DNA from: a virus
Reading direction: 5' to 3' (one strand)
UHGV virus genome: UHGV-0279031
DNA: 17,049 nucleotides
Shown here: one piece after another, positions 173-17,049 of the stretch
Position numbering within the stretch: the first letter of the stretch is position 1
Layout: each line of letters starts with the position of its first letter
Made by a program: the position numbers and the translations under genes
Notes under the pieces: generated by a model
What the model was told of the DNA's origin: nothing
The model's input: only the letters and a program-made list of their open reading frames with translations
The model's database searches: none

Positions 173-183
173 TCTGAATGCCA

Positions 184-1110
184 TTATGCAAGCCTCACAA
201 TATAGTTAAATGCGATGTTTTTGACGGTGTTTTCCGCGTTACCAGCTGCGTTAACGGTGATGGTGTGTCCATGTGAACCAATCGCAACGGAGTGCGTATG
301 CGCACCAATACCTACAGTATGTGCGTGTGCACCTGCGCTTGCAGCAGTACCCGATACAGAGTGCGTATGAGCGCCTGCAGAAGAAGTGTTAACACTGTAT
401 TTAGAATAATCAGGTGATCCACTTCCCGGAGCACCTTTGGTGCCACCTGAAACAAATGTTATCGAATGGGTATGTGCACCGGCTGAAGCAGCCGTACCGC
501 TAACACTATGGGTATCGGACGTTGGCTGGTCATATTCATCCGCGACCGCCGGACCGTGATAACCGCACTCATCACCGCGATAGGTCCAGGTGCAGGTATT
601 AGCAAGCATGATGCGCCCCGGAAAAACAGCGCCGTCCGTTTCCGTCGGCGTGGACAGTACAAAGGAGGCACTGACCGCGCTCAGTTCGCTGCACTGCTCA
701 ATACGCCAGCGGCTGATCACCTCCTGCTCCGGATCGGCGTCACTGTTTCCGTTGACGAAGTTCACCGCATCCAGAAAACGGGCGTAAACCTTACGCCTGA
801 CCACCGTTCCGCCGACCAGACTCTGCAGGTCTTCCGCCATCCCGGTGACCATGCCGTGCAGATTAGAGACTTTCAGCGTTGGCCTTGCACTGGCACCTTT
901 GCCGTTCATCTCAAATCCACTCCCCTGAATGGGATAGGCCTGATACTGCCGACTCTGCCAGGTGACAGACTCTCCTTTCTCGTTCTGCTCATTGCAGAAA
1001 AAGTAGCGATCCCCGCCTACCTCGGTCAGGTCGATTTCCCAGAGCACCACGCTGGCCGACTGCTCCGCACGAATGCATTCATTCAGCGTTTCCTGTTGTA
1101 TGTCCTGCAT
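184..1110 (-). CDS. Chimeric tail protein: gpL-like minor tail protein (about 200 aa) fused in frame to a His-rich tail-fibre tip repeat domain
   Basis: N-terminus [33 protein letters not shown]...[12 protein letters not shown] is near-identical to lambda gpL as recalled. After ...[12 protein letters not shown] the sequence becomes GAHTHS / GAHAHT / GSHGHT repeats ending [11 protein letters not shown], typical of side tail fibre C-termini. The start overlaps the gpM-like stop (ATGA). Confidence 0.75.
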
Positions 1111-1448: not shown

Positions 1449-4400
1449 TTAACATTCCCCCATCACGTCGCATATTTAACAGATTGCCCTGCACCCGCTG
1501 ATCAACCATCCCCATAAGTGCTTTTATTGCCTGAGGGCCAATCTCTCCATTCTGGCCGTCATTTTGAATAGTGATTTGGTATACAGGGGCATAGGTAATA
1601 TCTCCGCCTCCATTACCACTTTTACTATTAATAGCTCTGACACCAAGAGAACCATCGGAAGTTCGTGTTAATGGCATAATGGCTTCCGGTCCAGCCTCAC
1701 CAAAAACACCAGCCCCTTTTGCAAAAGCAAAAAATTGCGGGGAATCATAAATACCGTTCGAATACGTGCTCAATGACGGAGACTCATAAACACCGCCCTT
1801 TGCATTCGGAATAAATTTACTAATAGCACTCCCGATAGTTCCTAAAATCCCCCCAGAAGAACTGTTACTAATGCTGTCGATAATCCCAGTAATTGAAGCC
1901 TTTAATGCTATTCGACTAAGATCCGAAATCACGGAAGTAGCGAAAGAACGAAAATTTGCCTTGCCTGTCGTGACAAAATCACCCAGCGCATCGGTCATCC
2001 CATCAAACATCTGAGTCGTGGTTGATTTTATCTGCTCACTGATATCCTTAGTGTCATCCAGCCAGTTATTGAATCCCTGGGAGGCACCACTAACCCAGTC
2101 TCCTGCCTGAATATCGAGCTGCTCGTTTTTCTGTCTGACAATTTCTTTTTCCCGTTCCAGAGCATCATTCAGAGCCTGCATTTTCTCTTGAAAAACATGA
2201 TCTGACATTCCACGGGATTTATCTGCATAGTCACGTTCAAGTTGCAGACGCTGATTGTTATATCCATGTTCAATCCGCAGTAATTCCTGCTGGCGTTGCT
2301 GATTTTTATCGCCAACCCCATAACCAGCAATCTGAATATCATACCCCTGCTGACGATTATCAATCGAAGCCTGCAATGAATCACGCCATGCTGTTATTTC
2401 GGCGGATTCCTTGATTAGCCTGTTATTTTTTTCAATCGCAACATTTTTCTCCATCAACGTGGTTATTTCTTCCCGGTGTAAGAGAAGCGATTTCTGATCC
2501 TGGGTTAATTTCGATGATGGTCGTGACTCTAGGTCGGCAATCCGCTGACGCCACTTAACCAGTTCCTGTTCAGAGGAACTTAATTTAACGGTCAACTCAG
2601 CTTGTGAACTTAGTAACGCATTCTGTTGATTCAGATGATCAATCATTCGTTGGGCTGCATCATCAGAATAACCTTTCGCCTTTGGTTGCTTTGGATCTTT
2701 ATAACGCTCATTTATTTGAGCGATAAGATTATTATATTCTTCCTTTGAATACTGATTCTTTAGCTTTTCCAGTTTTGCAAGTTCACTAGCTCTCTGCTGC
2801 TCCCGGGTCTGATATTGTTTTGAAAAGGCATCTGCTCTCTGTCTGAGTTCAATTCCTTCCTGTTGTCGCTTGTTGTAATCGTTTATTGATGAATTTAGTA
2901 CGTCCTGAGCAATTTTTTCTGCTTGAAGTACGCCCAATTGCTGCTTTAATCGTGCCAGCCTTTTATTTTGAGCTCCGCCATCTCCAATGCCACCTAACCC
3001 GAAAACTCCGGGTCGGGTATTTTTTTCTATTTCATCAATTTGACGGAGAACATCTGAGATTTTTTGATCAAGGGAGGCCTCACGGCCAATATCCAGCATG
3101 GAATCCCATGCCCATTTTGCGGAGTCTGCGACAGCTTTCCATGCAGTCTCAAGATAACCAAGATTTTCTTTAATCTGGTTGGTGCGCTGGATCATTGAGG
3201 ATGAGTATTCTTCTGTCGCAATGCGGGCGGCCTCCTGCTGGTTCCCTTCATCCTGTAGCGCCTTAATCTGGTTATAAGTCGCAAGTGTCAGAAAATGGTA
3301 CTGATCATTAAGTTTTGATATGGCACTGACAGGATCCTTTGCAATTTCATTGAAGTCATTAACCAGTTGTTCGGTTGATATTCCTGTTACTTCGCTCGTT
3401 TTTACTATCGCTGTCGTCACTTGCTCCAGCGAACTGCTCGCTACCTTTCCCGAACGCACAAGCTGATTTAATACTGCCGCCGCAGCACCAGTTGTCGAAT
3501 CAGCCGCATTCCCGGCACGTTGAGCTATATCGCCCAATTGCCCGCTGGTTGTCCCCAACTGATTTCCGGTAAGAATAAGAGATTTATTAAATTCGTCCTG
3601 CTCCTGAGAGCCTTTATAGTAAGCCAGTCCTAAGACCCCAACGGCTGCTGCGGCCAGGGTAAAAGGATTAATTAATCCCAGCACATAAGAACCTACACCT
3701 TTGATCGCCGGGCCAATCCCACCGAACATATCTTTTAGCTGGCCGCCCTGCTGCATTAACACCATAAATGGCGACTGACCAGTGGACAACCCAACAACAA
3801 TATCCGTCATTTGTGCAGGCAACATGCGCATAGCAAAAGCCGTTTGTTTTGCCGACATTCCGGTTTTGCTTAATTGTGATTGAGTAACCTCAAGCTCACT
3901 CCGCATAGCACGAAGTTTTCCAGAAAGCTCCTCATACATTTCAGGAGAAAGCATCCCCTTAGCTTTTGCTTCATTGAGCTGTTTCTGTTGTTCTACCAGA
4001 CGATTAAAAGCAGTTCCGACAGGATCAAGTTGAGCAATCAGACGTTGCAAAGCAACAACCTGTTCATCATGCGCTTTTGCTGCTTCTCGCTCTGCCTGAG
4101 CCTCTCCGGTAAGCTCTCGCCGTGTTTCCTGTATTTTTCGGCTATAATTCTCAAACTGAGAACCATTTATTTTCCCGGATGCAAACGCAGCATTAAGTTC
4201 ATCATGCTGTTGTTCAAGATTTCTTAGCGCCGCAGCCAGAGGGTCGATCTTGTCCAGCATTCTTTGAAAGGCCTGAGCCTGCGCTTCCTGCTGGGCGGCA
4301 GCAAGTTTTCCGGCCTTCTCGGCTTCTCTCTGCGCTTGCGCAACCCCGCTCAATTCCTCTGTGGTTTCATTAAGTTTACGGACAAGAAATTCATATTCTT

Positions 4401-4674
4401 CTTTATCAATAAGCCCTTTATCGAAAAATTTCTTTAATTCAGAATAGCGTCGACCGACAGTATCAATTGCGGCACCAACTGGATCAATAGCTGCTTTTAA
4501 TTTTGCGAGCGCGTTCTTCTCATCTTCTGTTGCCTTAGTCACTTTCCCTGCGCTATTTGCAGCAGTTTCCCCAGCCTGCGTCATTTTGACTAATGAGGAG
4601 GTCAGATTGTCAGCATTATTTTTCGCTCCAGTGCTATCAATAATTATTGCGAGACGCGAGGTTTGCTCTGCCAT
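1441..4674 (-). CDS. Tail tape measure protein
   Basis: 1077 aa; long coiled-coil-rich N-terminal part, central hydrophobic Gly-rich segment ([42 protein letters not shown]), position immediately upstream of gpM/gpL. AGGAG Shine-Dalgarno 10 nt upstream of the ATG. Confidence 0.85.
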
Positions 4675-4689
4675 TTATTAAAACTCCTG

Positions 4690-4719
4690 ACAACAAAAAA
4701 CCCACCGCGAAGTGGGTTT
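4690..4719 (-). terminator. Intrinsic-terminator-like hairpin between the GT chaperone and the tape measure gene
   Basis: Minus-strand RNA: AAACCCAC-UUCGCG-GUGGGUUU (8-bp stem, 6-nt loop) followed by UUUGUUGU. It ends about 18 nt before the tape measure start codon. Confidence 0.4.
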
Positions 4720-4839
4720 CAGGCGACATAATAGTAGATATAGCGATTACGAGGCCACGCAATGCTTTTCTCCAGGAGCATCATCGATTTAATTAAAGAC
4801 ACCATCACATCTCTGTAACAGAGTGTACGTAATTAACAA

Positions 4840-5609
4840 CTACACACACTGCTCCTGAAAATACTGGTCATCCAGTGCAAAGATCACTGCTTCAAATTCA
4901 TCGCGCTCAATCAATACCGGATGAGTGGCTAAATATTCATTTATCTCTGTCAGAGATAAAGGCAAAGGCACCCCAGCCATTCCAGCATAACGTCGGGCAC
5001 GGGATATTACCGAATAGGCGTACAACAACTCCTTAAGCACCGGGTCTATTTCTGGTTCCGGTATCGGTGGCAACCTGAGTTTTTCTCGCTTCCATCTTGC
5101 CTTTTCCCCCCTTTCTCCCCCGAACTCCGATAACCACCGCTGGGCAGCTATGGCTTTTTTATCGTATCCTGCTTCTGCTGCTCTTTACCCTGGGCGATGC
5201 TGGCTGCTTCTGCAAGGATCTGCCAGTACAACTCTGGATTCTGCTTAAGCAGCGCGATCCCTCGTTCTGCCGTATATTCCAGTGCAACCTCAACACCATT
5301 AACCAGTTCACCAACCCCTTTCCAGTCTTTCAGCAGATAACGAGCGGCATTATCAATGAGTAAATCATCAACAGAATCCACCTCGGAAACCTTTGAAATA
5401 TCAAACTCCTTCGTTCCGACGTGCAAACTGGCATCCATTTTCTCAATGTGGCGACGGATTAATGCATTACGGGAGCGATACTGATCGTTATCGCTGCTTG
5501 CCACCAACAGTTTTAACCCGTCTACAGGTTTTAAGTCCTTCATTGGCGTAAACCAGCGTTCTCCACCAATGATAATTTTCTGATTAAGAATAAACATCCA
5601 TAACCTCAT
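4840..5609 (-). CDS. Tail assembly chaperone GT-like fusion product made by programmed -1 frameshift
   Basis: The -1 frame from the slip site is open with no stops and joins the 77-aa ORF 4840..5073 (…GEKGGKGKMEAREKLRLPPIPEPEID…). This is the same arrangement as lambda G/GT. Confidence 0.6.
5148..5609 (-). CDS. Tail assembly chaperone, gpG-like
   Basis: 153-aa ORF immediately upstream of the tape measure module; ends in the slippery heptamer A_AAA_AAG followed directly by TAG. Start could instead be the ATG at 5597 (GAGG 6 nt upstream). Confidence 0.65.
   Translation of the reverse strand: MRLWMFILNQKIIIGGERWFTPMKDLKPVDGLKLLVASSDNDQYRSRNALIRRHIEKMDASLHVGTKEFDISKVSEVDSVDDLLIDNAARYLLKDWKGVGELVNGVEVALEYTAERGIALLKQNPELYWQILAEAASIAQGKEQQKQDTIKKP
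5154..5160 (-). other. Programmed -1 ribosomal frameshift slippery heptamer A_AAA_AAG
   Basis: Minus-strand sequence GAT ACG ATA AAA AAG CCA TAG: a canonical X_XXY_YYZ heptamer positioned two codons before the gpG-like stop. Confidence 0.6.
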
Positions 5610-5657
5610 TCAATGCGTCCCCCTGTAGGGCAGTACCACAGGAGGAATAACGGAAAA

Positions 5658-6231
5658 TCAACTAATCGCCTCAGCACTGGCTTTTGCGATCACGGCAGCC
5701 GGGGAATTTTTTTTTCTGGTTATCGTAGGTGCTTCATCTGCTGCGGTAACCTGACGAGCCAGAGCAGCATCAGAAAGATCATCTTTAACACCAAACGGCG
5801 TTGTCCCTGCGGTTCCCACGGCGCGGGAAGCACCGAAATACAACGCACCAAGATCAGCCTCAACCTCGTTTGCAAGGGCGCGAAAAGCCTGCTTGAACTG
5901 ATCAGCCAGAATGGTGTTGTAAGTCCCTGAAGGGCCAAGAGCCAGTTGTTCTTCACCATTCCATTTAACCGGTGCCATTTTGGATTTAGTAATTTTTACA
6001 TCAACAGTGCCAATATTTTGATCACCGGTATTCGGAGCTGACGGCCCCGGTACGATATCTTCGGTTTTCGCCTCAGGCGCAACTGGCGCGGTTACCGTCT
6101 GATCTTTTGCTGCGGCGTCAGCTTTTGCGTTTTTTGCTACCGCAGGGATAAAACCTACCTGCTCACGGGATACAACATCCAGGGCGGTATAAATAGTCGG
6201 GATCAACCCGGTCAGGGTATTTCCAGCCATA
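5658..6231 (-). CDS. Hypothetical phage structural protein (191 aa) in the slot between scaffold and tail chaperone
   Basis: ORF with AAGGA Shine-Dalgarno 10 nt upstream of the ATG at 6231 (MAGNTLTGLIPTIYTALDVVSRE...). The ORF-track start at 6323 is less likely. No family recognised; too short for an HK97-fold capsid protein, compatible in size with a tail tube protein. Confidence 0.3.
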
Positions 6232-6328
6232 ATTAAATATTCCTTAAAAATTTGCGTAATTGTGAATAGATGGAGTAATGAGCTATCCAGCCCTGACACC
6301 AGCTCCCATCCGGAAGCTGACAAATGTG

Positions 6329-7093
6329 TTAATCAACGATTGTGATACCGTCTTTCAATGCGTTTTGCTTACCTGCAACATCCAGTGCATCAAAAGCAGA
6401 GCGTTTCATCGTTTTCTGACCAATATCATGCTGTGTCGGACGGGAGCCGCCGCCATTGTTGCCACTGGCTTTCAGGATGTAGTCTTTCTGAGGGTAATTT
6501 TCGACAAGGAACTCCAGCGCCTCATCAAACTGCGCCAGTTCGCCAGGCTTCGCGCGGGAATAAATTTTGTTGCCGGAAGCGTCATAAGCAACGATCCTCC
6601 CTTCTTCCACTTTGAATGCCTGCCCGAAGCGGGCTTGTAATAAATCTGCCGGGATCGCAATTTTATCGGCAATATATTTTGAACCCGCAAAACTACCGCC
6701 AATCATAGAATCGTAAAGCTGCTTCTCCAGCATCTGAGAGCGTTGCTTTTCTTCATCTAATTGCTGCTGAAAATTTTTCGTAATTTCTGCCTTAACCTGG
6801 TCAACCTGTCCCGCATCGAGCAGCTTTTTCTGGTCGATTTTTGACAGCATTTCCAGTGCCTCGATCGCCTTCTTCGGGTCTTCGATAGCGGCAAACTTAG
6901 CCAGTTTTTCCTCTGCAGCTTCTTTAGCCAGGCGATGATTTTTTGCCTCGCCATTAAGCTCTGTAATTTTTTTTGTCGCCAGCGGTGCATCGAAGCCAAT
7001 TTCTTTACCATCGTCGTGCACATAAACTGGCAGGCCAGCAGTATCAATTTCTGCGTATTGTTTTCCGTTAATCTCGACCGTTTTCAGTTTCAT
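6329..7093 (-). CDS. Probable head scaffolding protein
   Basis: Start MKLKTVEINGKQYAEID; long charged helical, probably coiled-coil, middle section (AKEAAEEKLAKFAAIEDPKKAIEALEMLSKIDQKK...QQQLDEEKQRSQMLEKQL); follows the portal and MuF-like genes. The upstream extension in the ORF track (7094..7165) overlaps a terminator-like hairpin and was trimmed. Confidence 0.45.
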   Translation of the reverse strand: MKLKTVEINGKQYAEIDTAGLPVYVHDDGKEIGFDAPLATKKITELNGEAKNHRLAKEAAEEKLAKFAAIEDPKKAIEALEMLSKIDQKKLLDAGQVDQVKAEITKNFQQQLDEEKQRSQMLEKQLYDSMIGGSFAGSKYIADKIAIPADLLQARFGQAFKVEEGRIVAYDASGNKIYSRAKPGELAQFDEALEFLVENYPQKDYILKASGNNGGGSRPTQHDIGQKTMKRSAFDALDVAGKQNALKDGITIVD

Positions 7094-7150
7094 ATTAGTA
7101 CCTGGTTTAAGTCTTCCGACAGTTACGCTGCTCACCATCCGGATCGCAGC

Positions 7151-7177
7151 AATAAAAAAGGCCACCCGAAGGTAGCC
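7151..7177 (-). terminator. Terminator-like hairpin in the MuF-like/scaffold intergenic region
   Basis: Minus-strand RNA GGCUACC-UUCG-GGUGGCC (7-bp stem with one G-U pair, tetraloop) followed by UUUUUUAUU. Confidence 0.35.
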
Positions 7178-7197
7178 TGTTGTAATAAATGATTTAT

Positions 7198-8313
7198 TTA
7201 AATCCCTGCTTTTCTGAATACCTGTGCATCACGCTCACGGAGCTGCTTCAGCGTCAGCCATTCGCCTTTATCGGTGTAAAATTCATCTGGCGACATACCA
7301 CCATCCCGAATCAGCTTTGCTCGGCTTTCCCCCACAATCTGTTTTTGTCTGGTGTAAGGCTGACGCAAAAACCATTCCCTGTAGGTTGTATCTCCGGCCA
7401 CCACGCCATCCATGCTGGCCCGCTCAGCCGGGGAAATATCGCGAACATCAATACCCAGTTCCTTCGCTGATTTCAGAATGAACGTTTCCGTTGAGCGGCA
7501 GCAGAAATGAATTTTTCCCGGCCCCTGCAAATAAGGCACGCTGTGACCTACAGGTTTATTATTCAGCGTATATTTGAGGCGATCCCTGATTCGACATTGT
7601 GGCGTAGTACGATTATCAAGCGTTGATAACCATTGCTTACCCTTAATCAAATCATTATTCGCGCTGGCAAAACTCTCACGGGCAGTAGCAGCAAGATGTC
7701 CAACCGCTGTTTTTGCAATGCTGGCCGCATTAGCCCGGCTCATCTGCAATGCACCATCCTGAAATCCCTTACTGACATGTCCCCGAATTTTTCTTGCGAT
7801 CTGCTCATTGGTATCCCCCAGCAAAAAACCCTGACGCACTGTATTTGTTATGCGTCTGAGCCGATCCGCCTCAAGATCTGAGGTCCACTCACTGAGCAGT
7901 CGTCCCTGGAATGGTCGCGCCATTGCAGCGGCATAAAGTGCATCAGGAGAGATACCAACCAGAGGGTGAACATCAGCAACAAAATCAGGTAGCATAGAAT
8001 CAAACAGACTTAACTGATAACCAGCCTCATAAATTGCCAGCTCGTTCAGCTCTCCGGAGAGACTGGTAAACATGCTGTTAATAGCAGTGCGGTTAACCTC
8101 TCTGACGCTCGCCAGAAGTGACTCCAGGCGCTTAACGGTAAAACTACCTGGATCGAGGCTGTCCAGTGCTATCAGCAGGCGAGCAGTAAGTTCCGCATCG
8201 CTGTCATTCAGTATTTTCACCATTCTGGCAGCCACGCCAGTGCTATAGCGGGATATCCAGACTGCATGAGCAATTGATTCATCACGCAGCCGTTCATTCA
8301 CGGTTTGCATCAT
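7198..8313 (-). CDS. Head morphogenesis protein, phage Mu F-like / SPP1 gp7-like minor head protein
   Basis: 371 aa directly downstream of the portal gene; contains a ...GKIHFCCRST... segment resembling the conserved His/CRC motif of MuF-domain proteins. Confidence 0.5.
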   Translation of the reverse strand: MMQTVNERLRDESIAHAVWISRYSTGVAARMVKILNDSDAELTARLLIALDSLDPGSFTVKRLESLLASVREVNRTAINSMFTSLSGELNELAIYEAGYQLSLFDSMLPDFVADVHPLVGISPDALYAAAMARPFQGRLLSEWTSDLEADRLRRITNTVRQGFLLGDTNEQIARKIRGHVSKGFQDGALQMSRANAASIAKTAVGHLAATARESFASANNDLIKGKQWLSTLDNRTTPQCRIRDRLKYTLNNKPVGHSVPYLQGPGKIHFCCRSTETFILKSAKELGIDVRDISPAERASMDGVVAGDTTYREWFLRQPYTRQKQIVGESRAKLIRDGGMSPDEFYTDKGEWLTLKQLRERDAQVFRKAGI

Positions 8314-9700
8314 TGATTTCCATCAGCATTACACTCTGATTTTTTAATTCATCGATCACTTCCTCTGGACGGGAATCCTGATCGATAAATTTCAACGCCT
8401 GCAACACCCGAACCGCATCAATCTGACGTATATCACCGCCCTGACGCAATGACTGAACAGCCAGCGCGGAGGATGAGTCAAACACCTGGGCAGATACATC
8501 CAGTTCAGTGCGCACATCCACATTGCCACCGCAACTCTCTCCGATCCATTCCGCCATTATCTGGAGAATATTATCGAGGGCATCTTCGAGGGAGTTCGCC
8601 ATTGTATAAAGCGGCGAGTTTTCCTGCATTCGCTCTTCATTAGTCTGATCAACAGATTTGGTGGATGTATTTTCAGCACGCAGAAGTTTAGCGCCGGCAT
8701 GACGCATCTGATTTTCCAGCTTCTCAAGTGATGTTTCGCCAGATTCTATCGCTGCGCCACTATGTTCAACATATTCGAGGCCATTTTTTGTTCTGTCCTC
8801 AAAAATCGTAGCGGTGGATGCACCAACCGTCAGTTCTTCATTCCTGTCCAGCCCGTAGGCCACCAGCAATGGAACGCGGGCAACATGAAGAATATTGTCC
8901 TGCTCGCTCTGGCTTTGCCAGTGCTTGATATTCAGCAAGCCAAGATTAAGCAATGGCGGTGTACCACGCATAAATCCTGTTTTCTTCGTGTACAGTGTTA
9001 CCAGAGGAATATCATCACGGCTGGTATTCCATGACTCATGAAGCGTCCAGACAGATTCGCCATTAGTGCCTTCGCTACGTCGATAAATTTCAACTCGACG
9101 GGGCATAATATGGCGGATCTGCTCCACCTTCTTCTGCCCGAAATCATCACCATCAATAATGATGACCTCTTTTATACGCAAATCAGTGAGAACAACTTTC
9201 CCTTTTTCAACTTTCGATTTCCATCCAATAACCTGGCGTGGATTCAGCATCGTAACGTACGGACGACCACCGGTCGCGTTTTCATCGGCTTTTGTCCGAA
9301 TCTCTTTCATATCCGTTCGTGGATAGTCCACCAGCGCATGTGCCACACCATACTGAAATGCGAGGCTGAAAAATTGCTGTGCCCACACATCCAGTCGGCT
9401 CCCCTCCATGTCGATATTTTCTGCATATTCCCTGATTTTTGCCGGCGTTTCCTCACTCAATACTGTCGGCTCTGCAAATATGCGCCCAATATTTTGCTTG
9501 ATGCTTTCTTCATACACAGGAAGTAGCGTAGCCACAGACAGGCGTTTTTTATAAGCGTCTTCATCTTCGTTAGGCCATTTTGGGAGATAATTTTCCCCCT
9601 GCCTGCGCATTTCAAGCGTACCGCCCATCAGTGCGTCGTTAATATCCCACGCCTCCAGCATATCGTTATAGTCGAGGTTGGGTGTTGATATATCAGCCAT
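8294..9700 (-). CDS. Portal protein
   Basis: 468 aa, acidic; lies between the terminase large subunit and the MuF-like gene, the canonical portal position. No motif-level confirmation possible by eye. Confidence 0.6.
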   Translation of the reverse strand: MADISTPNLDYNDMLEAWDINDALMGGTLEMRRQGENYLPKWPNEDEDAYKKRLSVATLLPVYEESIKQNIGRIFAEPTVLSEETPAKIREYAENIDMEGSRLDVWAQQFFSLAFQYGVAHALVDYPRTDMKEIRTKADENATGGRPYVTMLNPRQVIGWKSKVEKGKVVLTDLRIKEVIIIDGDDFGQKKVEQIRHIMPRRVEIYRRSEGTNGESVWTLHESWNTSRDDIPLVTLYTKKTGFMRGTPPLLNLGLLNIKHWQSQSEQDNILHVARVPLLVAYGLDRNEELTVGASTATIFEDRTKNGLEYVEHSGAAIESGETSLEKLENQMRHAGAKLLRAENTSTKSVDQTNEERMQENSPLYTMANSLEDALDNILQIMAEWIGESCGGNVDVRTELDVSAQVFDSSSALAVQSLRQGGDIRQIDAVRVLQALKFIDQDSRPEEVIDELKNQSVMLMEINDANRE

Positions 9701-9702
9701 AA

Positions 9703-11013
9703 TTAAATCCGAAGTGATGTGACTCTTCCGGTCGGTTTGACAATAGGGAATTGCTTAACGATGAAATAACCTCCGGCATCATTCGGGTGATCATTGCCAG
9801 ATTTTTTATCAGGCTCCCCCTTCTCATCCCAGACCTGTTGCTCCAGAGATTCGGCATATAACGGGCAACGCTTCACATTAACTTTATAGCGACGCTCACC
9901 ATTGGCATTGCAGAACATTGCATTCATTGAGTTAACGCGATCTTTTACTGGCGGGTTCGAGCTGTTCACCACAACGTTAAAACCAGCCTACTTAAGCTGG
10001 GCTATATCCGTCGTACTTGCGTTACTTGATTTTCTGGAATCCCCGGAAGCATCTGGATAAATATAAATTTCCCTCACTTTCCGGTAATCATTCCCATCAT
10101 ACAGCCAGAAGCGTTCTTTAATGATGCGGATCATATCCGGCGTATCGTAGGCATTGATGATTTCAGTTACCGCACATGGAAGCCCCAAACGCAGCACATG
10201 GACGATTCCCGCCATCTTTCCAACGTTAAAATCCATCCCAATATAAATCGGCTCCCCTGGCTGCTCCACTTCTTCGCAATTATTCAGTTTCCGGTCAAAC
10301 TGATGGTAAACAGTACCACTTGTCAGGTTAGTAAACTGTCCTCGAAGATAGGCTTTAATCAGCTCTGGAGGGTATGATTCAAGAAGCGAAGGAATGTAAT
10401 CTGCTGGCAGGTTCTTTTCATTATCGAAAGTAGATGCCTGCACCAGACCATACAGTGAGGCCAGCTCTGTTTTTTCACGCACGGCTTTAACAAACTGCTC
10501 GTAGACAAATTTGAATCCTTCCGGCGTGGTTGTAACGTCAATACCGTTGCGAAGTCCATCAATCTTATAACGCATACGTGCAATTATCTTGCGCCACGCC
10601 GTTCTGGCTTTTTCCTTCGGCAAAATGTCCAGTTCATCCACCAACGCATTACCAATTTTGAAACCGACGATCGTTTGTGGCTTCTCCATCGATCTGCAGA
10701 TAGTGGTTCCCCGATACTGGCGTCCGTAATAAAAGTGAACCTCTTTATTTCCCTCATTAATTTTTACGTTCAATCCCCAGTCAGCAGCAACTTCTTCCAC
10801 TGTAGGGTAAAAAATATCGCGAATTTGGGGATACGTTGGCGCAAAATATCCCTGATTTATACCTGGATGCTCCCAAATCCCCTTGCATATGCCGCCACAC
10901 CCAACCCATGTTTTGCCCGAGCCAAAACCAGCAATATAGGCTTTAAATTTATGGGGCATTGAAAGAAATCGCGCCTGAGGCACATTAAGCGTCGGAGAGA
11001 TCATCTTCATCAC
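9703..11013 (-). pseudogene. Terminase large subunit interrupted by a single in-frame TAG (plus-strand 9988-9990)
   Basis: N-terminal ORF (341 aa) has Walker A GFGSGKT and a nuclease-domain start (IYIGMDFNVG). The 89-aa ORF 9703..9972 is in the same frame and ends with NDHPNDAGGY, which looks like a terminase nuclease C-terminal motif. Only TAG plus five sense codons separate them (...DIAQLK*AGFNVVVNSS...). Confidence 0.7.
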
Positions 11014-12079
11014 TCCTTACTCTGGCATCAACCACATTAATATTGATCGCCACAGGCTGGGGATATTCATTATCTTCCACCGTTTCGATCTCTTTGCGCA
11101 GCTTCTGGTTTTCCATTCTGCGCCGTTCAATTTCCAGTTCCTGTAGCCGCTTATCTGCACATAAAGCCCCGCCAGCAGAAAACAAACGCAACAATTCACG
11201 CCGGGCGGCAGCCTTATCCTCCAGCAGGATCTCAACGCCGAATTTTCCGAATTTTGCCCCTGCATATAATTGCCGCGCATCCCCATCAAGCAGAGTGGTA
11301 TCAGCCATATAAAGCTGTCCCGTTTCCTCACCGCAGCACTTCGGGCAGTCCGGATTGGGTATGGCGTTATCAACAAAGCCGAGGCCTCCATATTCCGGTT
11401 CGGGTTTGCCATCTCTGGAAGCCTGCGCCGCTGCCTTGTCGAATTCTGCTATATCGCGCCACTGGTAGAGATGATTCTCGCCCCAGCAATAACGGCAGTT
11501 AACACGGCGAAATTGTGCAAGCTGATTGGGGTCGGCCAGGACAATAGCCATCAACTGACTCACTAGTAAATCCAGGTCTGCGGTATAGCGTTTCTGGTAC
11601 TGATTGCGGAAGTAGCTGATAGCGCGAAAAACCCTGGCATTTCTAAGCATACGACTGGCGTTGCTGTTAGCTGTCGCACCTTGCCCCTCATAACCGGCTA
11701 GTCGGTACGCCTCTGTCGGCTTTTTACCCTGAGCAACAAGCATCGCAAACTTAGCCTGCTGGTCAGAAATGCCGAATTCATCGGGACAGAACGAAAATTC
11801 CTCCGCGTCGCCCTCATTCAGGCCCGCATCGAATACTGGCTTTTTTTCCTGAGATTTTTCGTTCCGCTTTTGTGCAGTCTGCGCAGATTTTTTCTGCGCA
11901 CTTTTTTGCGCAGTTTTGCACATTTCTGTCTGCGCATTTTTCGGAGTTTTTTTGATGTAACGACGGGCTGTTGCGTAATTCAGTCCCCTTGCTTCACACC
12001 ATGCCACCGGAGATATACCGGAGCGGGTGTATTCAGCAATATACTCCTGCTGCAACGCCCCCCAGTCCGGTCTGCTCAT
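10985..12079 (-). CDS. Putative terminase small subunit / DNA-packaging DNA-binding protein
   Basis: 364 aa immediately upstream of and overlapping the terminase large subunit; N-terminal HTH-like segment, Cys cluster (CRYCW...CPKCC), basic AQK-rich stretch. Larger than a typical small subunit, so the call is positional. Confidence 0.4.
   Translation of the reverse strand: MSRPDWGALQQEYIAEYTRSGISPVAWCEARGLNYATARRYIKKTPKNAQTEMCKTAQKSAQKKSAQTAQKRNEKSQEKKPVFDAGLNEGDAEEFSFCPDEFGISDQQAKFAMLVAQGKKPTEAYRLAGYEGQGATANSNASRMLRNARVFRAISYFRNQYQKRYTADLDLLVSQLMAIVLADPNQLAQFRRVNCRYCWGENHLYQWRDIAEFDKAAAQASRDGKPEPEYGGLGFVDNAIPNPDCPKCCGEETGQLYMADTTLLDGDARQLYAGAKFGKFGVEILLEDKAAARRELLRLFSAGGALCADKRLQELEIERRRMENQKLRKEIETVEDNEYPQPVAININVVDARVRSDEDDLSDA
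11881..11946. repeat. Array of TGCGCA-like palindromic hexamers, each followed by a T-tract, inside the 5' part of the terS candidate
   Basis: TGTGCA 11881, TGCGCA 11890, TGCGCA 11905, TGCGCA 11917, TGCACA 11927, TGCGCA 11941; spacings of 9-15 bp; T4-7 tracts between them. Confidence 0.6.
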
Positions 12080-12082
12080 CAG

Positions 12083-12334
12083 TTAGTCCTGATTTTTATC
12101 CACCCTGAGTAGTTCGCGCAGAGCAAAGGCATCCCCTTTTCTGGCAAGCTTAAACAATGCCGCTCGTAACTCGGCTTCACCTTTCGCTCTGCCCTTACGG
12201 ATGGCCGCATAAAAATCTGTCATTGCTTCCCGATTTTCTTTCAGTCGGTTCAGATCAACATCCAGAACGTCAGCGATTTGTTGTGCAGTCATCCGGCACG
12301 CTGCCAGAGACTCGACTTTCGAATACGGAATCAT
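12083..12334 (-). CDS. Small helix-turn-helix-like protein (83 aa)
   Basis: GGGGGTGA Shine-Dalgarno 3 nt upstream of ATG 12334; contains MTAQQIADVLDVDLNRL, an HTH-like segment; tightly packed immediately upstream of the terS candidate. Confidence 0.4.
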   Translation of the reverse strand: MIPYSKVESLAACRMTAQQIADVLDVDLNRLKENREAMTDFYAAIRKGRAKGEAELRAALFKLARKGDAFALRELLRVDKNQD

Positions 12335-13220
12335 TTGTCACCCCCATTGATATGCAGGGTGTCTTCTTCCTGTATTTTTCGTGAAGGATTTTTACTGCAG
12401 CGTTGTTCCAGGTGACCTGATGGTGAATGCGTTTATGACTGGCACCCATAAGTGAGATTTTTACGCACGACGGCGCATACATGACGGAGTAAAAACTTTT
12501 AACGTAGGTTCCGGAATCCAGATACAGCTCGGTCATTCCGCCGCTGTTTTTCTGCGTCTGTTTCTGCCCTAACTGGACAGCACCGATCGTCATAAACAAT
12601 TCACCACAGCGACCGAGATTCGTGTACGTATTCACATCCTCGTTAATGCGCCCCATGAATGAGAACGGTCGATCAACCGAACAGATAAAGCTGTTCATTG
12701 CCTTGCGTTTCACCCACGAAGCATGGCCGCCATTGTCACCAAGAAAATCCCCGCCCTGCGACATAGCGATGGAAAGAGCAGGTATTGATTCGTAGTACGC
12801 AAGCATTTCAGAAAGGATCTCATCCAGTTTCCTTATCGGGAAATAGGCCTGGTCATAGTTGCGATCCACCCGAAACTGGAACTCGTGATAATCATCATCG
12901 AGCTGAATGAAGTATTTACACCCGACCAGTTTTGCCTGGTCGAAACAGGCATTACGGGCGTAAAAAATTGAGCGGCGGTCACTAAAATTATCGGCTTCGT
13001 CAAAACGACTAGCAATATCGGCTTTGGAAAATACCAGCACCTGTTCACCAAATTCAGCCATGTACTGATGCCGTGTCTTATCTTCATCATCAACAACGAT
13101 AAAAATTTTCCCGGTATAGCCAGCACGACGCAACGTCCGGTAAGTCAGAACTTTGTCCGGTCGCCCGTGAGTCAGAATAAAGGCGCAAAAATCATCACGC
13201 ATATTCCTCCTCCCCGCCAT
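12270..13220 (-). CDS. Uncharacterised enzyme-like protein with two acidic clusters (VVDDED, QLDDDY)
   Basis: 316-aa ORF; start overlaps the ParB-like gene stop (alternative ATG at 13202 preceded by GGAGGAGG). Strand-then-acidic pattern AFILTHGR...IFIVVDDED...YFIQLDDDY resembles DxD-type nucleotide-dependent transferases, but this is motif-level inference only. Confidence 0.3.
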   Translation of the reverse strand: MAGRRNMRDDFCAFILTHGRPDKVLTYRTLRRAGYTGKIFIVVDDEDKTRHQYMAEFGEQVLVFSKADIASRFDEADNFSDRRSIFYARNACFDQAKLVGCKYFIQLDDDYHEFQFRVDRNYDQAYFPIRKLDEILSEMLAYYESIPALSIAMSQGGDFLGDNGGHASWVKRKAMNSFICSVDRPFSFMGRINEDVNTYTNLGRCGELFMTIGAVQLGQKQTQKNSGGMTELYLDSGTYVKSFYSVMYAPSCVKISLMGASHKRIHHQVTWNNAAVKILHEKYRKKTPCISMGVTNDSVFESRVSGSVPDDCTTNR

Positions 13221-13983
13221 GCATGATCTCCACCATGCGCTGCGTCATTCGGACAAATCCATTTTCAATAGCCTGCTGATAATCAATGATCACCAGCGCC
13301 GACTCCTCGAAAAGGCACTGAATTTCAGCGGGGGCATGAGCGTAATAGTCCGCAATTCTGCTGAAATTAAACACCGTGTGACGTTCTGCTGCACACAGGA
13401 GGAATTTCTCAATATCAGGATCAAGGGACGCCGAACGTATCCGGCTGATCAGCTCCTGAGTTTTCGTATCGTCGTACAGTTCACTGATATCCGGTTTACC
13501 GCCTGACGGCTCATAAACAGGCGTATCAATTTTCGTCGTATACGGCTCCTCCTCATTTCCTGTACCGGGCAAAACATCCGTCAACAGTTCATCAATTTCT
13601 GCCGGGATGAAGCCTGTCAGGGAGACATCAAAATCAGCATTGATTAGGTCCGACAGCTCCATCCGCAACAGATCTTCATCCCAGCCAGCATTCATCGGCA
13701 GGCGATTATCTGCCAGGCGGTACGCCTTTTTCTGCTCATCCGTCAGGCCAGACAGAACAATGACCGGAACAGAATCCATTTTGAGCATTTCAGCCGCCAT
13801 AACACGACCGTGACCCGCAATAATTTCGCCCTTTTCGTCAATCAGCACCGGATTAGTCCAGCCGAATTGCTTAATACTTTCTACCAGTTGTGCCACCTGC
13901 TCAGTACTGTGCGTCCTGGCGTTGTGCGCATACGGTGACAATTCTTGTAATGGGCGATAGACTATCTTTAATTTCTCGCTCAT
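13195..13983 (-). CDS. ParB/sulfiredoxin-like N-terminal domain protein
   Basis: 262 aa; N-terminal region with ...PVLIDEKGEIIAGHGRVMAAEML..., a DGxHR-like ParB-fold motif; this is the position held by ynaK in Rac-like prophages, directly after trkG. Confidence 0.55.
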   Translation of the reverse strand: MSEKLKIVYRPLQELSPYAHNARTHSTEQVAQLVESIKQFGWTNPVLIDEKGEIIAGHGRVMAAEMLKMDSVPVIVLSGLTDEQKKAYRLADNRLPMNAGWDEDLLRMELSDLINADFDVSLTGFIPAEIDELLTDVLPGTGNEEEPYTTKIDTPVYEPSGGKPDISELYDDTKTQELISRIRSASLDPDIEKFLLCAAERHTVFNFSRIADYYAHAPAEIQCLFEESALVIIDYQQAIENGFVRMTQRMVEIMHGGEEEYA

Positions 13984-13998
13984 ACAGCCTTGCTTTAT

Positions 13999-14034
13999 GA
14001 ATAAAACGCACCCCAGCAGCCAGTGCTACTGGGG
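13999..14034 (-). terminator. Possible terminator downstream of trkG
   Basis: Minus-strand RNA CCCCAG-(12-nt loop)-CUGGGG followed by UGCG-UUUUAUU; the loop is longer than typical, so the call is weak. Confidence 0.3.
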
Positions 14035-14120
14035 GCGGAGGTGTTGCTGGTAAAGTTAGGTATTGGATCAATGAGCGAGTCAACATAATATTAAACTCAC
14101 AATTATAAATCAGCCATATA

Positions 14121-15578
14121 TTAGGAGCGCCAAAAAAAACCTGAAAACAATATAATAACAGGATAAATTTCAAGGCGACCAAGAATCATAGCTATGCACA
14201 TTAAATATTTTGCAATGTCATTAAGCACTCCGAATGACGATGCAGTAGCCCCAAAACCTAATCCCATATTATTAATACATGCAGCCACTGTTGCAAATGA
14301 TGTAAGAAAATCATATCCCATACCATTTAACACCAGTATAAAAAACACCGTGAAGAGAGTATAAAGAAAAAAGAAACTCCATACAGACCTCATTACACGA
14401 TCTGTAACTATCTTCCCTCCTACATTTACACTCAACAACGCTCTGGGATGAGAAAGCTGATTTATCTCGTGTTTGCTTTGTTTGAAAAGTATAAGAAATC
14501 GAAGTGACTTAATTCCACCACAGGTTGAACCTATACATCCCCCAAAGAAACTTGACAACAGCAAAAACACTATCGTGTGCGTGGGCCAGTTTGCATAATC
14601 CTGCGTAGCTAAACCATTATCAGTGAGCATGGAGCTGGCAAGAAAAAACGAATGAATAAAACTTCCATGCAAGTCATACATACCTATATGCCAGACCTGG
14701 AAAGAGGTAACAATGATCACCCCTAAGGCTATTAACAGAAAGAAACGAAGTTCAATATCTCTGATTAAAGGTTTTATCGTTTTTCTGCTAATAACAATAT
14801 ACCAAAGAGTGAAGTTGAAAGCCGATAGCAGGGAAAAAGAACCAGCCACCAGCTCAACCAAATAGTTATTAAAATATCCGATACTCTCGCTATGAGTTGA
14901 GAAACCACCAAGCGAAACTGTGGAAATCCCGTGACAAATAGCATCAAACAAAGGCATTCCTGCAAGTCTATAACAGACAATACAAGCAATACCTAATAAA
15001 GAATAAGTTATCCACAGTGTCCGTGACGTATCGGCCAGGCGGGGAGTGAGTTTGTCATCCTTAAATGGCCCCGGCATTTCTGACTGATAAAGCTTTGCAC
15101 CACCAATACCCAATAATGGCAATACTGCAACCGCCAGAACAATAACTCCTAAACCACCTATAAAATTTAACTGTGACCGATAGTACAAATATGCCCGAGG
15201 TAATGAACTAACATCATCAATTACAGTTGCTCCTGTTGTTGTTATTCCAGAAACCCCTTCAAACAGAGCATCAATGAACGTTAAATTAAGTTCTGAGTCA
15301 ATCCATAAAGGGAATGCACTAATAACAGAAAACAAAATCCAAAACATTACAATTATAATAAACCCATCACGGGTACGTAATTGAATGCCAGATTTCTTAG
15401 TTGTATACCACGCTCCGCCACCAATGCAAAAAAATATAACGAAAGTTATAAAGAAAACGAACAGGCTTTTTTCTTTATAAAACAATGCTACAACCATTGG
15501 TGGCAACATTGAAAGACTATAGAGCCAAACCAGGAACCCACACATATGAGTAACAACTCTTACATGAGATGTATTCAT
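14121..15578 (-). CDS. trkG: Trk-system potassium uptake membrane protein TrkG (TrkH/TrkG family)
   Basis: 485 aa from ATG 15578 (MNTSHVRVVTHMCGFLVWLYSL...), matching my recollection of E. coli Rac-encoded TrkG; many hydrophobic segments; markedly AT-rich relative to the flanking phage genes. The ORF track starts 18 nt upstream at a TTG. Confidence 0.85.
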   Translation of the reverse strand: MNTSHVRVVTHMCGFLVWLYSLSMLPPMVVALFYKEKSLFVFFITFVIFFCIGGGAWYTTKKSGIQLRTRDGFIIIVMFWILFSVISAFPLWIDSELNLTFIDALFEGVSGITTTGATVIDDVSSLPRAYLYYRSQLNFIGGLGVIVLAVAVLPLLGIGGAKLYQSEMPGPFKDDKLTPRLADTSRTLWITYSLLGIACIVCYRLAGMPLFDAICHGISTVSLGGFSTHSESIGYFNNYLVELVAGSFSLLSAFNFTLWYIVISRKTIKPLIRDIELRFFLLIALGVIIVTSFQVWHIGMYDLHGSFIHSFFLASSMLTDNGLATQDYANWPTHTIVFLLLSSFFGGCIGSTCGGIKSLRFLILFKQSKHEINQLSHPRALLSVNVGGKIVTDRVMRSVWSFFFLYTLFTVFFILVLNGMGYDFLTSFATVAACINNMGLGFGATASSFGVLNDIAKYLMCIAMILGRLEIYPVIILFSGFFWRS

Positions 15579-15715
15579 ATCTAAATATTCTTTCAATTAT
15601 AACCACCTTGCTGCAATATTATGATTATACTGTATAAAATTTAACTCCTCTTAGATCTTACTTCACTGTTCCTTATGAAACAATCATCAAAATGAATCAT
15701 ATTGTAGTTAAGATT

Positions 15716-16180
15716 TTACTTTAAACACTGCTCGGTTATGTATTGCTGAGCACCTTCAAGTTGGGCCTGCATCATTACCAGTCGTTCCCGGAGGGTGAAA
15801 TAATCCCGTTCAGCGGTGTCTGCCAGTCGGGGGGAGGCTGCATTATCCACGCCGGAGGCGGTGGTGGCTTCACGCACTGACTGACAGACTGCTTTGATGT
15901 GCAACCGACGACGACCAGCGGCAACATCATCACGCAGAGCATCATTTTCAGCTTTAGCATCAGCTAACTCCTTCGTGTATTTTGCATCGAGCGCAGCAAC
16001 ATCACGCTGACGCATCTGCATGTCAGTAATTGCCGCGTTCGCCAGCTTCAGTTCTCTGGCATTTTTGTCGCGCTGGGCTTTGTAGGTAATGGCGTTATCA
16101 CGGTAATGATTAACAGCCCATGACAGGCAGACGATGATGCAGATAACCAGAGCGGAGATAATCGCGGTTACTCTGTTCAT
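15716..16180 (-). CDS. Rz: Rz i-spanin
   Basis: From ATG 16180 (ATGA overlap with the endolysin stop) the translation [60 protein letters not shown]... is near-identical to lambda Rz. Confidence 0.9.
15775..15960 (-). CDS. Rz1: Rz1 o-spanin lipoprotein, embedded in the +1 frame of Rz
   Basis: [52 protein letters not shown]: signal peptide, lipobox VVGC and proline-rich body, as in lambda Rz1. Confidence 0.9.
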
Positions 16181-16674
16181 TGCTGACCCCACAAACAGAT
16201 TTCACGCTCAATCTCACGACGAGTCATGAGACCTTTCCATTGCTTACCGCCAGCATATGTCCAGCGACGTAGCTGATCACATGCGCCTTTGATATCGCCC
16301 TGGTTTATTTTGCGAAGAAGCGTCGATGTTCTGAAATTGCCAGCACCCACGTTGTAAACGAATGAGTAAAGAGCGCCGCGCGTTGTTTCCGGTATATCGA
16401 CTTTGATGTACGGGTTAATTTGTCTGGCGACAGTGGCAAGGTCTTTATTCAAGAGTGTTTTGCATTCTGCTTTGGTATACGTTTTACCGAGCATGATGTC
16501 TTTTCCTGTATGCCCGTGACATACAGTCCATACACCAACAATATCTTTGTATGGTATGTAGCTGACACCTTCCAGACCATCGTTACCACTTGGGCCAGTG
16601 ATTAACACTGATGCTATAGCAATTGCTCCGCCACCAATAGCAGCAGCAACGGCTTTTCGTAATGATGGAGGCAT
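16177..16674 (-). CDS. R: SAR endolysin, P21 R-type (T4-lysozyme-like glycoside hydrolase)
   Basis: [57 protein letters not shown]...: Gly/Ala-rich signal-anchor-release N-terminus plus E/D/T catalytic residues; near-identical to phage 21 endolysin as recalled. Confidence 0.9.
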
Positions 16675-16745
16675 TATTCACCTCTCGCAGCCTTGCGCTT
16701 ATCTTCTTTAATCTTGAAATAAAGGTTTGTCAGGTACGTCAGCAG
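16674..16745 (-). pseudogene. Holin remnant: only the C-terminal ~23 codons of a P21 S-type pinholin
   Basis: C-terminus ...[23 protein letters not shown] matches the S21 pinholin C-terminus; stop overlaps the endolysin ATG (TAATG). The N-terminal 40 codons of ORF 16674..16865 are the antisense reading of a duplicated endolysin fragment, not holin. Confidence 0.6.
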
Positions 16746-16748
16746 GCC

Positions 16749-16842
16749 GTGGGTGCTGGCAATTTTAGAACATCGACGCTTCTTCGCAAAATAAACCAGG
16801 GCGATATCAAAGGCGCATGTGATCAGCTGCGTCGCTGGACAT
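16749..16842. repeat. 94-bp inverted duplicate of an internal endolysin segment (partner 16257..16350), 2 mismatches
   Basis: The reverse complement of 16749..16842 equals 16257..16350 except at two positions (compared base by base). Confidence 0.85.
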
Positions 16843-16948
16843 ACCTTCCAGACCATCGTTACCACTTGGGCCAGTGATTAACACTGATGCTATAGCAATT
16901 GCTCCGCCACCAATAGCAGCAGCAACGGCTTTTCGTAATGATGGAGGC
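16843..16948. repeat. 106-bp perfect direct duplicate of the endolysin 5' end / SAR-domain coding region (partner 16567..16672)
   Basis: Identical string accttccagaccatcgtt...cgtaatgatggaggc at both sites. The second copy has no ATG; a TAA lies 5 codons upstream in frame. Confidence 0.85.
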
Positions 16949-17049
16949 TGACTCGGAGTCAGTTACGTTTCTGCTTTTTTGCGATACGTTGTATTCCCTC
17001 AATTTACACCCGCTTTGTCTGCGAGGTGGGGTTATGAAATTCATGGATA

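What the first reader, a model, noticed from the sequence alone, without database searches (positions are those of the whole stretch)
9703..11013. Terminase large subunit split by a single in-frame amber codon
The ATPase half (Walker A GFGSGKT) and the nuclease C-terminal half are in one frame, separated only by TAG at 9988-9990 (...DIAQLK-TAG-AGFNVVVNSS...). One point mutation from a sense codon would give this. It is either a nonsense lesion inactivating packaging in a decaying prophage, or a gene dependent on amber suppression.
Basis: seen in the sequence. Interest (0 to 1): 0.5.

Follow-up and report, generated by a model that had tools for sequence, protein, structure and literature searches.

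The report
Nonsense-killed terminase in a decaying prophage
A single C-to-T change has put a stop codon inside the DNA-packaging (large terminase) gene of a Rac-like prophage in one E. coli lineage, and because that prophage has also lost its capsid and tail genes this is an ordinary dead gene.

Summary
On the minus strand (11013→9703) a large terminase (TerL) reading frame is interrupted by one in-frame TAG at 9990–9988.

The gene differs at exactly one base from the intact 433-aa TerL of Rac-like prophages and induced phages. That base turns CAG (Gln339) into TAG.

None of 750 complete E. coli genomes carrying this gene has the TAG. The exact 338-aa truncated product is nevertheless on record on 107 contigs from E. 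coli isolates and gut metagenomes, so it is a real, inherited allele and not a base-call error.

Every carrier locus fetched also has the same two deletions:
- 3.3 kb, from the capsid C-terminus to the tail tube.
- 8.6 kb, from gpL to stfR.

The element therefore cannot build virions whatever the state of TerL. No tRNA gene lies in the window or in three carrier loci scanned.

The stop does not separate the ATPase half from the nuclease half. It bisects the RNase H-like nuclease domain (residues 255–417).

Verdict: a clonally inherited nonsense pseudogene in a multiply deleted Rac-like prophage. Ordinary, low interest.

The parts
9703..11013 (-). terL pseudogene (large terminase). The annotated start in intact homologues is the ATG at 11004, and the intact product is 433 aa.
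   Evidence: Translation. One-base difference from WP_000625348.1-encoding genes in L001 and L002. Pfam Terminase_6N and Terminase_6C on the intact homologue.
9988..9990 (-). In-frame amber codon TAG replacing CAG (Gln339). The mutated base is + strand position 9990 (G>A on +, C>T on the coding strand).
   Evidence: A 61-mer around it is matched exactly by 0 of 750 complete E. coli genomes. It is present in all 19 carrier loci checked by string match.
9988..11004 (-). Truncated TerL ORF of 338 aa: the full ATPase domain (residues 24–238) plus the first half of the RNase H-like nuclease domain.
   Evidence: Pfam Terminase_6N at 1.9e-33, with no Terminase_6C hit on this piece. The exact sequence is on 107 contigs.
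9703..9987 (-). Orphaned C-terminal 94 codons of terL: the second half of the nuclease domain, including the invariant D405, H406, N408 and D409.
   Evidence: The 89-aa ORF 9703..9972 matches Terminase_6C profile positions 87–154 of 155. Invariant columns in alignment A1.
10985..12079 (-). terS (small terminase, 364 aa). It is uninterrupted and overlaps the terL start by 20 nt.
   Evidence: ORF list. Annotation and Pfam Terminase_2 in homologous loci.
5658..6230 (-). Deletion scar 1: an in-frame fusion of the N-terminal ~160 aa of the major capsid protein to the last ~29 aa of the tail tube protein. The junction is at 5748/5749 with 2-bp microhomology. 3.3 kb is missing (capsid C-terminus, head-tail connector genes, tail terminator, tail tube).
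   Evidence: blastn against L003, L001 and L002. Junction sequences. PHROG major head protein profile positions 2–164 of 385 only. The junction is absent from 5426 complete genomes. It is linked to the TAG in all contigs shown.
184..1110 (-). Deletion scar 2: an in-frame fusion of gpL (residues 1–199) to the C-terminal ~109 aa of the StfR side tail fibre. The junction is near 513–515 with 3-bp microhomology. 8.6 kb is missing (gpK, gpI, gpJ, lom, most of stfR).
   Evidence: blastn against L003. Junction sequences. PHROG hits to minor tail protein at 1–199 and tail fibre at 200–308. The junction is absent from complete genomes.
8294..9700 (-). Portal (DUF4055, 468 aa) immediately downstream of terL, uninterrupted.

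Best explanation
This is a terL pseudogene. A spontaneous C→T transition changed Gln339 (CAG) to amber (TAG) in the large terminase gene of a Rac-like lambdoid prophage sitting at the E. coli Rac locus.

Translation now stops after 338 of 433 residues. The product keeps the ATPase domain but has only the first half of the RNase H-like nuclease domain. It lacks the invariant DHxND segment, so by inference it cannot cut concatemers or complete packaging.

In this lineage the prophage has also lost the capsid C-terminus, the head-tail connector genes, the tail terminator, the tail tube, gpK, gpI, gpJ and most of stfR through two microhomology-mediated deletions. The element is a non-infectious remnant, and the amber codon is one of several neutral decay lesions passed on vertically with the chromosome.

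Shown: the ancestral codon, the reality and inheritance of the allele, its linkage to the deletions, and the position of the stop inside the nuclease domain. Inferred: loss of nuclease and packaging activity, and neutrality.
For: 1. The window gene differs by one base from the intact genes in E. coli 7/2 and Salmonella phage SPF_0923, CAG→TAG at codon 339.
2. 10 phage records and 753 complete E. coli genomes carry the gene at ≥80% coverage, annotated as a single terminase large subunit CDS in the rows shown. No genome matches the TAG-centred 61-mer exactly.
3. 23 homologues at 78–100% identity are all single proteins of 433–436 aa, with Q, E or D at this site.
4. The exact 338-aa truncated protein is on 107 contigs, from NCBI E. 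coli isolates and ENA gut metagenomes. The window is 99.92–100% identical and collinear to 10 such loci.
5. All 19 carrier loci checked have the TAG, and both deletion junctions are present wherever the locus reaches them. Contigs retrieved through the capsid-fusion protein all carry the 338-aa TerL.
6. Pfam places Terminase_6N at 24–238 and Terminase_6C at 255–417 in the intact protein. The downstream piece matches 6C profile positions 87–154, so the stop bisects the nuclease. The Foldseek matches with E ≤ 0.001 (18) are all TerL structures: phage D6E full-length, and the P22 and SPP1 nuclease domains.
7. Within the carrier lineage the structural module (window 116–12230) shows 8 nonsynonymous changes, 1 synonymous change and 2 frameshifts, plus a further split of the MuF gene and IS insertions in gpL in some carriers. 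This fits relaxed constraint.
8. There is no tRNA gene in the window or in three carrier loci.
Against: - The order of the three lesions cannot be resolved, because no intermediate genotype was seen. It is not shown that terL was already dispensable when it mutated.
- terS, portal, MuF-like, scaffold-like and tape-measure ORFs remain open, and terL has no second lesion. The decay is therefore recent or slow.
- No SNP falls in terL among carriers. About one would be expected by chance, so this says nothing either way.
- Host tRNA genes could not be inspected.
- Loss of activity of the truncated protein is inferred, not measured.
- The residue-level mapping of the third catalytic acidic residue was not established. 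The AF2 model was poor (pLDDT 49.8) and there were no PDB sequence hits.
Confidence: 0.93

Rival explanations
1. The gene is functional but depends on amber suppression. A host or prophage suppressor tRNA inserts an amino acid at UAG339 and yields full-length TerL.
For: The site tolerates Q, E or D in homologues, so a Gln-inserting suppressor would restore the wild type. The downstream 94 codons are still in frame and unmutated. From my own knowledge, natural coliform isolates carrying amber suppressors have been reported (Marshall & Levy, Nature 1980); I did not verify this here.
Against: There is no tRNA in the window or in three carrier loci of 21 kb. The allele is confined to one clonal lineage and is absent from 750 complete genomes with this gene. 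The same element lacks more than half of the capsid gene, the tail tube and the tail tip genes, so restored TerL would have nothing to package into. The UAG-G context is an ordinary stop with no recoding signal; Rfam finds nothing in the window.
Confidence: 0.02
2. The truncated TerL (ATPase plus half a nuclease), perhaps together with the still-open terS, portal and MuF genes, is retained because it benefits the host. One possibility is interference with DNA packaging by related superinfecting phages.
For: The ORFs for terS, the TerL N-fragment, portal, the MuF-like protein and the scaffold-like protein are uninterrupted in the window and in most carriers. No substitution was seen in terL among carriers.
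Against: The SNPs in this module are overwhelmingly nonsynonymous (8 to 1) with extra frameshifts, a split MuF gene in L026 and IS insertions, which is the pattern of neutral decay. Zero SNPs in 1.3 kb is not significant at the observed density of about 0.9 per kb. No defence-family evidence was sought or found for TerL.
Confidence: 0.03
3. The TAG is a sequencing or assembly error in this contig.
For: It is a single-base difference from a very common allele. The window's extreme ends look like assembly patchwork.
Against: The identical truncated protein was called on 107 contigs from independent NCBI isolate assemblies and ENA metagenomes. 19 fetched loci, from about 15 distinct records, all have TAG.
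Confidence: 0.005
4. The two ORFs are naturally separate genes, a two-piece terminase.
For: None beyond the presence of two ORFs in the window.
Against: Every homologue examined is one ORF of 433–436 aa. The break falls inside a single Pfam domain.
Confidence: 0.005

Closest known systems
Intact TerL of Rac-like prophages and induced phages (WP_000625348.1; Escherichia phages vB_EcoS-666R9, -613R10 and others; Salmonella phage SPF_0923)
   Same: 1310 of 1311 nucleotides are identical. The neighbours are the same: terS upstream, DUF4055 portal downstream, and trkG, ParB_N and a glycosyltransferase further upstream.
   Different: Those genes have CAG at codon 339 and encode the full 433-aa protein. 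Their elements keep the capsid, connector, tail tube and tail tip genes that are deleted here.
Rac cryptic prophage of E. coli K-12 (own knowledge, plus the annotation seen in related loci)
   Same: The chromosomal locus and marker genes match: trkG, ydaY, stfR/tfaR, with uspF–ompN–nifJ(ydbK) on the flank. It is likewise a defective, vertically inherited remnant.
   Different: From memory, K-12 Rac has lost the whole head and packaging module. This lineage still has most of it and shows an earlier stage of decay (one nonsense codon plus two deletions). Carriers have sitABCD next to tfaR instead of pinR.
Laboratory amber mutants of terminase genes, such as lambda Aam, P22 gene 2 am and T4 gene 17 am (own knowledge)
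   Same: The molecular lesion is the same, a sense codon turned to UAG in the large terminase, which gives a packaging-null phenotype in non-suppressing hosts.
   Different: Those are selected conditional-lethal mutations in otherwise complete phages propagated on suppressor strains. This one is a natural allele in wild E. coli, in an element that is defective for other reasons as well.
Other disrupted copies of the same terL in E. coli
   Same: Independent inactivations of this gene exist: an IS903B insertion in strain NT1F31, and cluster members that diverge from the intact sequence after residue 298, 331 or 334.
   Different: Those have different lesions at different positions. They show that decay of this gene recurs, not that they share ancestry with the amber allele.

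Membership tests
Large terminase subunit (TerL; Pfam Terminase_6N + Terminase_6C type) | N-terminal ASCE ATPase domain with a Walker A P-loop | tested here: met
   GFGSGKT at residues 26–32. Terminase_6N scores 116 bits against a cutoff of 22 on the 338-aa fragment.
Large terminase subunit (TerL; Pfam Terminase_6N + Terminase_6C type) | Contiguous C-terminal RNase H-like nuclease domain in the same polypeptide | tested here: not met
   The intact homologue has Terminase_6C at 255–417 (40.6 bits, cutoff 22.6). In the window the domain is cut at residue 339, and the 338-aa product gives no 6C hit. The window copy therefore descends from a TerL gene but does not encode a complete TerL.
Large terminase subunit (TerL; Pfam Terminase_6N + Terminase_6C type) | Fold resembles solved TerL structures | tested here: inconclusive
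   The AF2 model of the intact homologue is poor (mean pLDDT 49.8). The 18 Foldseek matches with E ≤ 0.001 are nevertheless all TerL: D6E (best E 6e-10), P22 nuclease 4dkw and SPP1 nuclease 2wc9, at low TM-scores. There were no PDB hits by sequence or profile.
Large terminase subunit (TerL; Pfam Terminase_6N + Terminase_6C type) | Position between the small terminase and portal genes in a head-morphogenesis operon | tested here: met
   terS (Terminase_2) overlaps the start, and the DUF4055 portal follows 2 nt after the stop.
Nonsense pseudogene in a defective prophage | Close orthologues carry a sense codon and an uninterrupted ORF | tested here: met
   CAG in L001 and L002. 0 of 750 complete genomes match the TAG-centred 61-mer exactly. 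The site is Q, E or D in 23 homologues.
Nonsense pseudogene in a defective prophage | Independent inactivating lesions in other essential genes of the same element | tested here: met
   The 3.3-kb and 8.6-kb deletions truncate the capsid gene and gpL and remove the tail tube, terminator, gpK, gpI and gpJ.
Nonsense pseudogene in a defective prophage | Signature of relaxed selection after inactivation | tested here: inconclusive
   8 nonsynonymous, 1 synonymous and 2 frameshift variants in the structural module among carriers. The direction fits neutral decay, but the numbers are small and none falls in terL.
Nonsense pseudogene in a defective prophage | The allele is real and heritable, not an error | tested here: met
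   107 contigs carry the exact truncated protein. 19 loci all have TAG.
Suppression-dependent or recoded gene | A cognate suppressor tRNA encoded in the element | tested here: not met
   ARAGORN finds no tRNA in the window, L005, L008 or L010.
Suppression-dependent or recoded gene | A suppressor tRNA (CUA anticodon) in the host chromosome | not testable with these tools
   Whole carrier genomes cannot be fetched. Only ±10 kb around exact-match proteins is available.
Suppression-dependent or recoded gene | The in-frame stop is conserved across diverged homologues | tested here: not met
   The stop is found only in one near-clonal lineage, 0–14 SNPs per 16.6 kb. All diverged homologues have a sense codon.
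Rac-like lambdoid prophage at the Rac locus | Marker genes trkG, ydaY and stfR/tfaR, with a uspF–ompN–ydbK chromosomal flank | tested here: met
   Annotations of L001 and L003. Carrier loci show tfaR–sitABCD–uspF–ompN–nifJ.

The most novel reading that the evidence does not exclude
The amber allele and the surviving head and packaging genes are not junk. On this reading the truncated TerL, an ATPase without a working nuclease, is kept by this E. coli lineage as a dominant-negative decoy that poisons DNA packaging by superinfecting Rac-like phages. Alternatively, low-level readthrough supplies terminase to a helper-dependent element.
Probability: 0.03. Interest if true: 0.35.

Novelty: already known. 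Interest (0 to 1): 0.06.

Why it matters
It matters little beyond annotation. The two ORFs should be annotated as one terL pseudogene, and the element as a defective Rac-like prophage.

The triplet of lesions (amber at codon 339 plus two specific deletion junctions) is a clean clonal marker for one E. coli lineage seen in isolates and gut metagenomes. It also gives a snapshot of an intermediate stage of Rac decay. It neither reveals a new mechanism nor makes an open question testable.

Tried and rejected
- Exact 40-mer scan of one genome per species (genome contigs) for the TAG allele: 0 hits. The source is not a species-representative genome.
- PDB sequence search with the intact protein, and with a 23-sequence profile: 0 hits at E≤0.01 and E≤1. 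I could not map catalytic residues by alignment.
- AlphaFold2 with the shallow alignment gave a poor model (pLDDT 49.8). The fold search still returned TerL structures, but the TM-scores are low, so I use it only as corroboration.
- I looked for intermediate genotypes (TAG with an intact capsid, or the deletion with CAG) from both sides. None was found, so the order of events stays open.
- I tried to name the host lineage from the chromosomal flank. The nearest complete genomes are only 99.6% identical, so the lineage is not represented among complete genomes.
- Rfam scan of the window: nothing.
- The literature searches I ran found no description of this allele.
- Dcm-site deamination as the cause of the mutation: the mutated C lies in GCAGG, not in CCWGG, so I rejected it (sequence).

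Full report
**Observation.** The feature is on the minus strand. Translating window 11013→9703 gives 437 codons in one frame with a single internal stop...TTDIAQLK*AGFNVVVNSS... The TAG occupies 9990–9988. The Walker A motif GFGSGKT is present. The ORF listing shows the two pieces as 9988..11013 and 9703..9972. Homologues start at the ATG at 11004. The intact protein is therefore 433 aa, and the stop replaces residue 339.

**What the ancestral codon was.** Megablast of the 1311 nt finds 10 phage records at 99.8–99.9% identity. These are Escherichia phages of the vB_EcoS-…R series and Salmonella phage SPF_0923. It also finds 787 of 5426 complete E. coli genomes, 753 of them at ≥80% coverage. 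In the rows shown the gene is annotated as a single terminase large subunit CDS. Base-by-base comparison with E. coli 7/2 (L001) and phage SPF_0923 (L002) shows exactly one difference, CAG→TAG at this codon. That is + strand position 9990, a C→T transition on the coding strand. A 61-mer centred on the TAG is found in 750 complete genomes, and none of them matches it exactly. In 23 homologues of 78–100% identity from Klebsiella, Serratia, Providencia, Kosakonia, Dickeya and others, the protein is always one chain of 433–436 aa. The aligned residue is Q, E or D. The idea of naturally separate genes is therefore refuted.

**Is the TAG real?** It is. The exact 338-aa truncated product is on record on 107 contigs, listed in 210 index blocks. 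Several NCBI E. coli isolate assemblies and ENA gut metagenomes carry it. The window from 116 to 16748 is collinear with ten such loci at 99.92–100% identity, and L008 is identical. All 19 carrier loci I tested by string match have the TAG. A base-call error is excluded.

**Where the stop falls in the protein.** Pfam places Terminase_6N (ATPase) at residues 24–238 of the intact protein and Terminase_6C (RNase H-like nuclease) at 255–417. Both score above their gathering thresholds. The 338-aa product keeps only 6N. The downstream ORF matches 6C profile positions 87–154 of 155. The stop therefore bisects the nuclease domain rather than separating an ATPase half from a nuclease half. The orphaned part contains the invariant D405-H406-x-N408-D409 segment. 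From general knowledge of TerL nucleases, the last metal-binding acidic residue sits near the C-terminal end of the fold. I could not verify the mapping. There were no PDB sequence hits and the AF2 model was poor (pLDDT 49.8). The 18 Foldseek matches with E ≤ 0.001 were still all TerL structures: full-length D6E TerL and the P22 and SPP1 nuclease domains.

**Context: a multiply deleted Rac-like prophage.** Related loci carry trkG, ydaY, stfR/tfaR/pinR and the uspF flank, which marks the Rac locus. Compared with an intact relative (L003), the window lacks two segments.
- A 3.3-kb segment (L003 17240–20564) is missing. The junction is at window 5748/5749 with 2-bp microhomology. The deletion removes the C-terminal ~57% of the major capsid gene, the head-tail connector genes, the tail terminator and nearly all of the tail tube gene. 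It leaves a 190-aa in-frame fusion, which matches only positions 2–164 of 385 in the PHROG major head profile.
- An 8.6-kb segment (L003 3401–12003) is missing. The junction is near window 513–515 with 3-bp microhomology. The deletion removes the end of gpL, then gpK, gpI, gpJ and lom, and most of stfR. It leaves a 308-aa gpL–StfR fusion.

Neither junction occurs in any complete E. coli genome. Contigs retrieved through the capsid-fusion protein or the gpL-fusion protein all carry the 338-aa TerL. The contigs shown that were retrieved through the truncated TerL all carry the capsid deletion, and the gpL–stfR junction wherever the locus reaches it. The three lesions are thus in complete linkage within one near-clonal lineage, and their order cannot be determined. 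In carriers the element lies next to sitABCD–uspF–ompN–nifJ.

**Signs of continuing decay.** Among carriers, variants in the structural module (window 116–12230) are 8 nonsynonymous, 1 synonymous and 2 frameshifts (in ydaY and the capsid fusion). One carrier has a split MuF gene, and several have an IS (Transposase_mut family) inserted in gpL. Other E. coli genomes carry independent disruptions of this same terL, such as an IS903B insertion. This is the usual pattern of prophage erosion. No variant falls in terL itself, but only about one would be expected by chance.

**The amber-suppression alternative.** ARAGORN finds no tRNA in the window or in three 21-kb carrier loci. Rfam finds nothing in the window. 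Host tRNA genes could not be examined. The argument is largely moot, because even full-length TerL would have no capsid to fill and no tail to attach.

**Conclusion.** This is a clonally inherited nonsense pseudogene of terL in a defective Rac-like prophage. It is ordinary biology, useful mainly for correct annotation and as a lineage marker. Its "decaying prophage" reading is supported and its suppression reading is not. Its domain description needs the correction given above.

Noticed in passing
window 5658-6230 (junction 5748/5749) and 184-1110 (junction ~513-515): Two deletions (3.3 kb and 8.6 kb) relative to intact Rac-like prophages. Each has 2–3 bp of microhomology and each happens to create an in-frame fusion ORF: capsid N-terminus to tail-tube C-terminus, and gpL to the StfR C-terminus. 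Both being in frame has about a 1-in-9 chance.
   Followed up: yes
window 12270-13983, minus strand: An uninterrupted gene pair between trkG and terS: a ParB_N/Srx-domain protein (262 aa) and a TAGT / GREB1-related glycosyltransferase (316 aa; PHROG 842 'beta-glucosyl-HMC-alpha-glucosyltransferase'). This looks like a possible DNA-modification or anti-restriction module of Rac-like phages. In L003 the ParB gene is a pseudogene.
   Followed up: partly
window 14121-15596, minus strand: trkG (a Trk potassium transporter, a moron gene of Rac) is uninterrupted and sits between the lysis cassette and the packaging genes. Only one nonsynonymous variant was seen among 10 carriers.
   Followed up: partly
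window 1-115 and 16748-17049: The two ends of the window do not continue collinearly with the carrier contigs. Bases 16748–16843 are an inverted copy of 16256–16351, and 16843–16948 are a direct copy of 16567–16672 (pieces of the lysozyme gene). Bases 1–113 match the tfaR region of L003 in inverted orientation (the pin-invertible region). These are most likely contig-end, assembly-graph artefacts at repeats shared between prophages. Most assemblies carry this gene on 10–20 kb contigs.
   Followed up: partly
L023-L026 11724-15173; also L004, L010, L013, L021 near 20350-20450: In carrier genomes the iron/manganese transporter operon sitABCD lies directly after the tail-fibre assembly gene, where K-12-type Rac has pinR. 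It is followed by uspF–ompN–nifJ. Several carriers have an IS (Transposase_mut family) inserted in the gpL fusion gene.
   Followed up: partly
L007 4257-4830 (equivalent to window 16333-16513): A cluster of 7 SNPs in the lysozyme gene of one carrier. It suggests a short recombination tract from another lambdoid prophage rather than point mutation.
   Followed up: no
window 11065 (terS codon 339): The window and L008 have TAT (Tyr) where 16 of 19 carrier loci have CAT (His). This marks a sub-clade within the carrier lineage.
   Followed up: no
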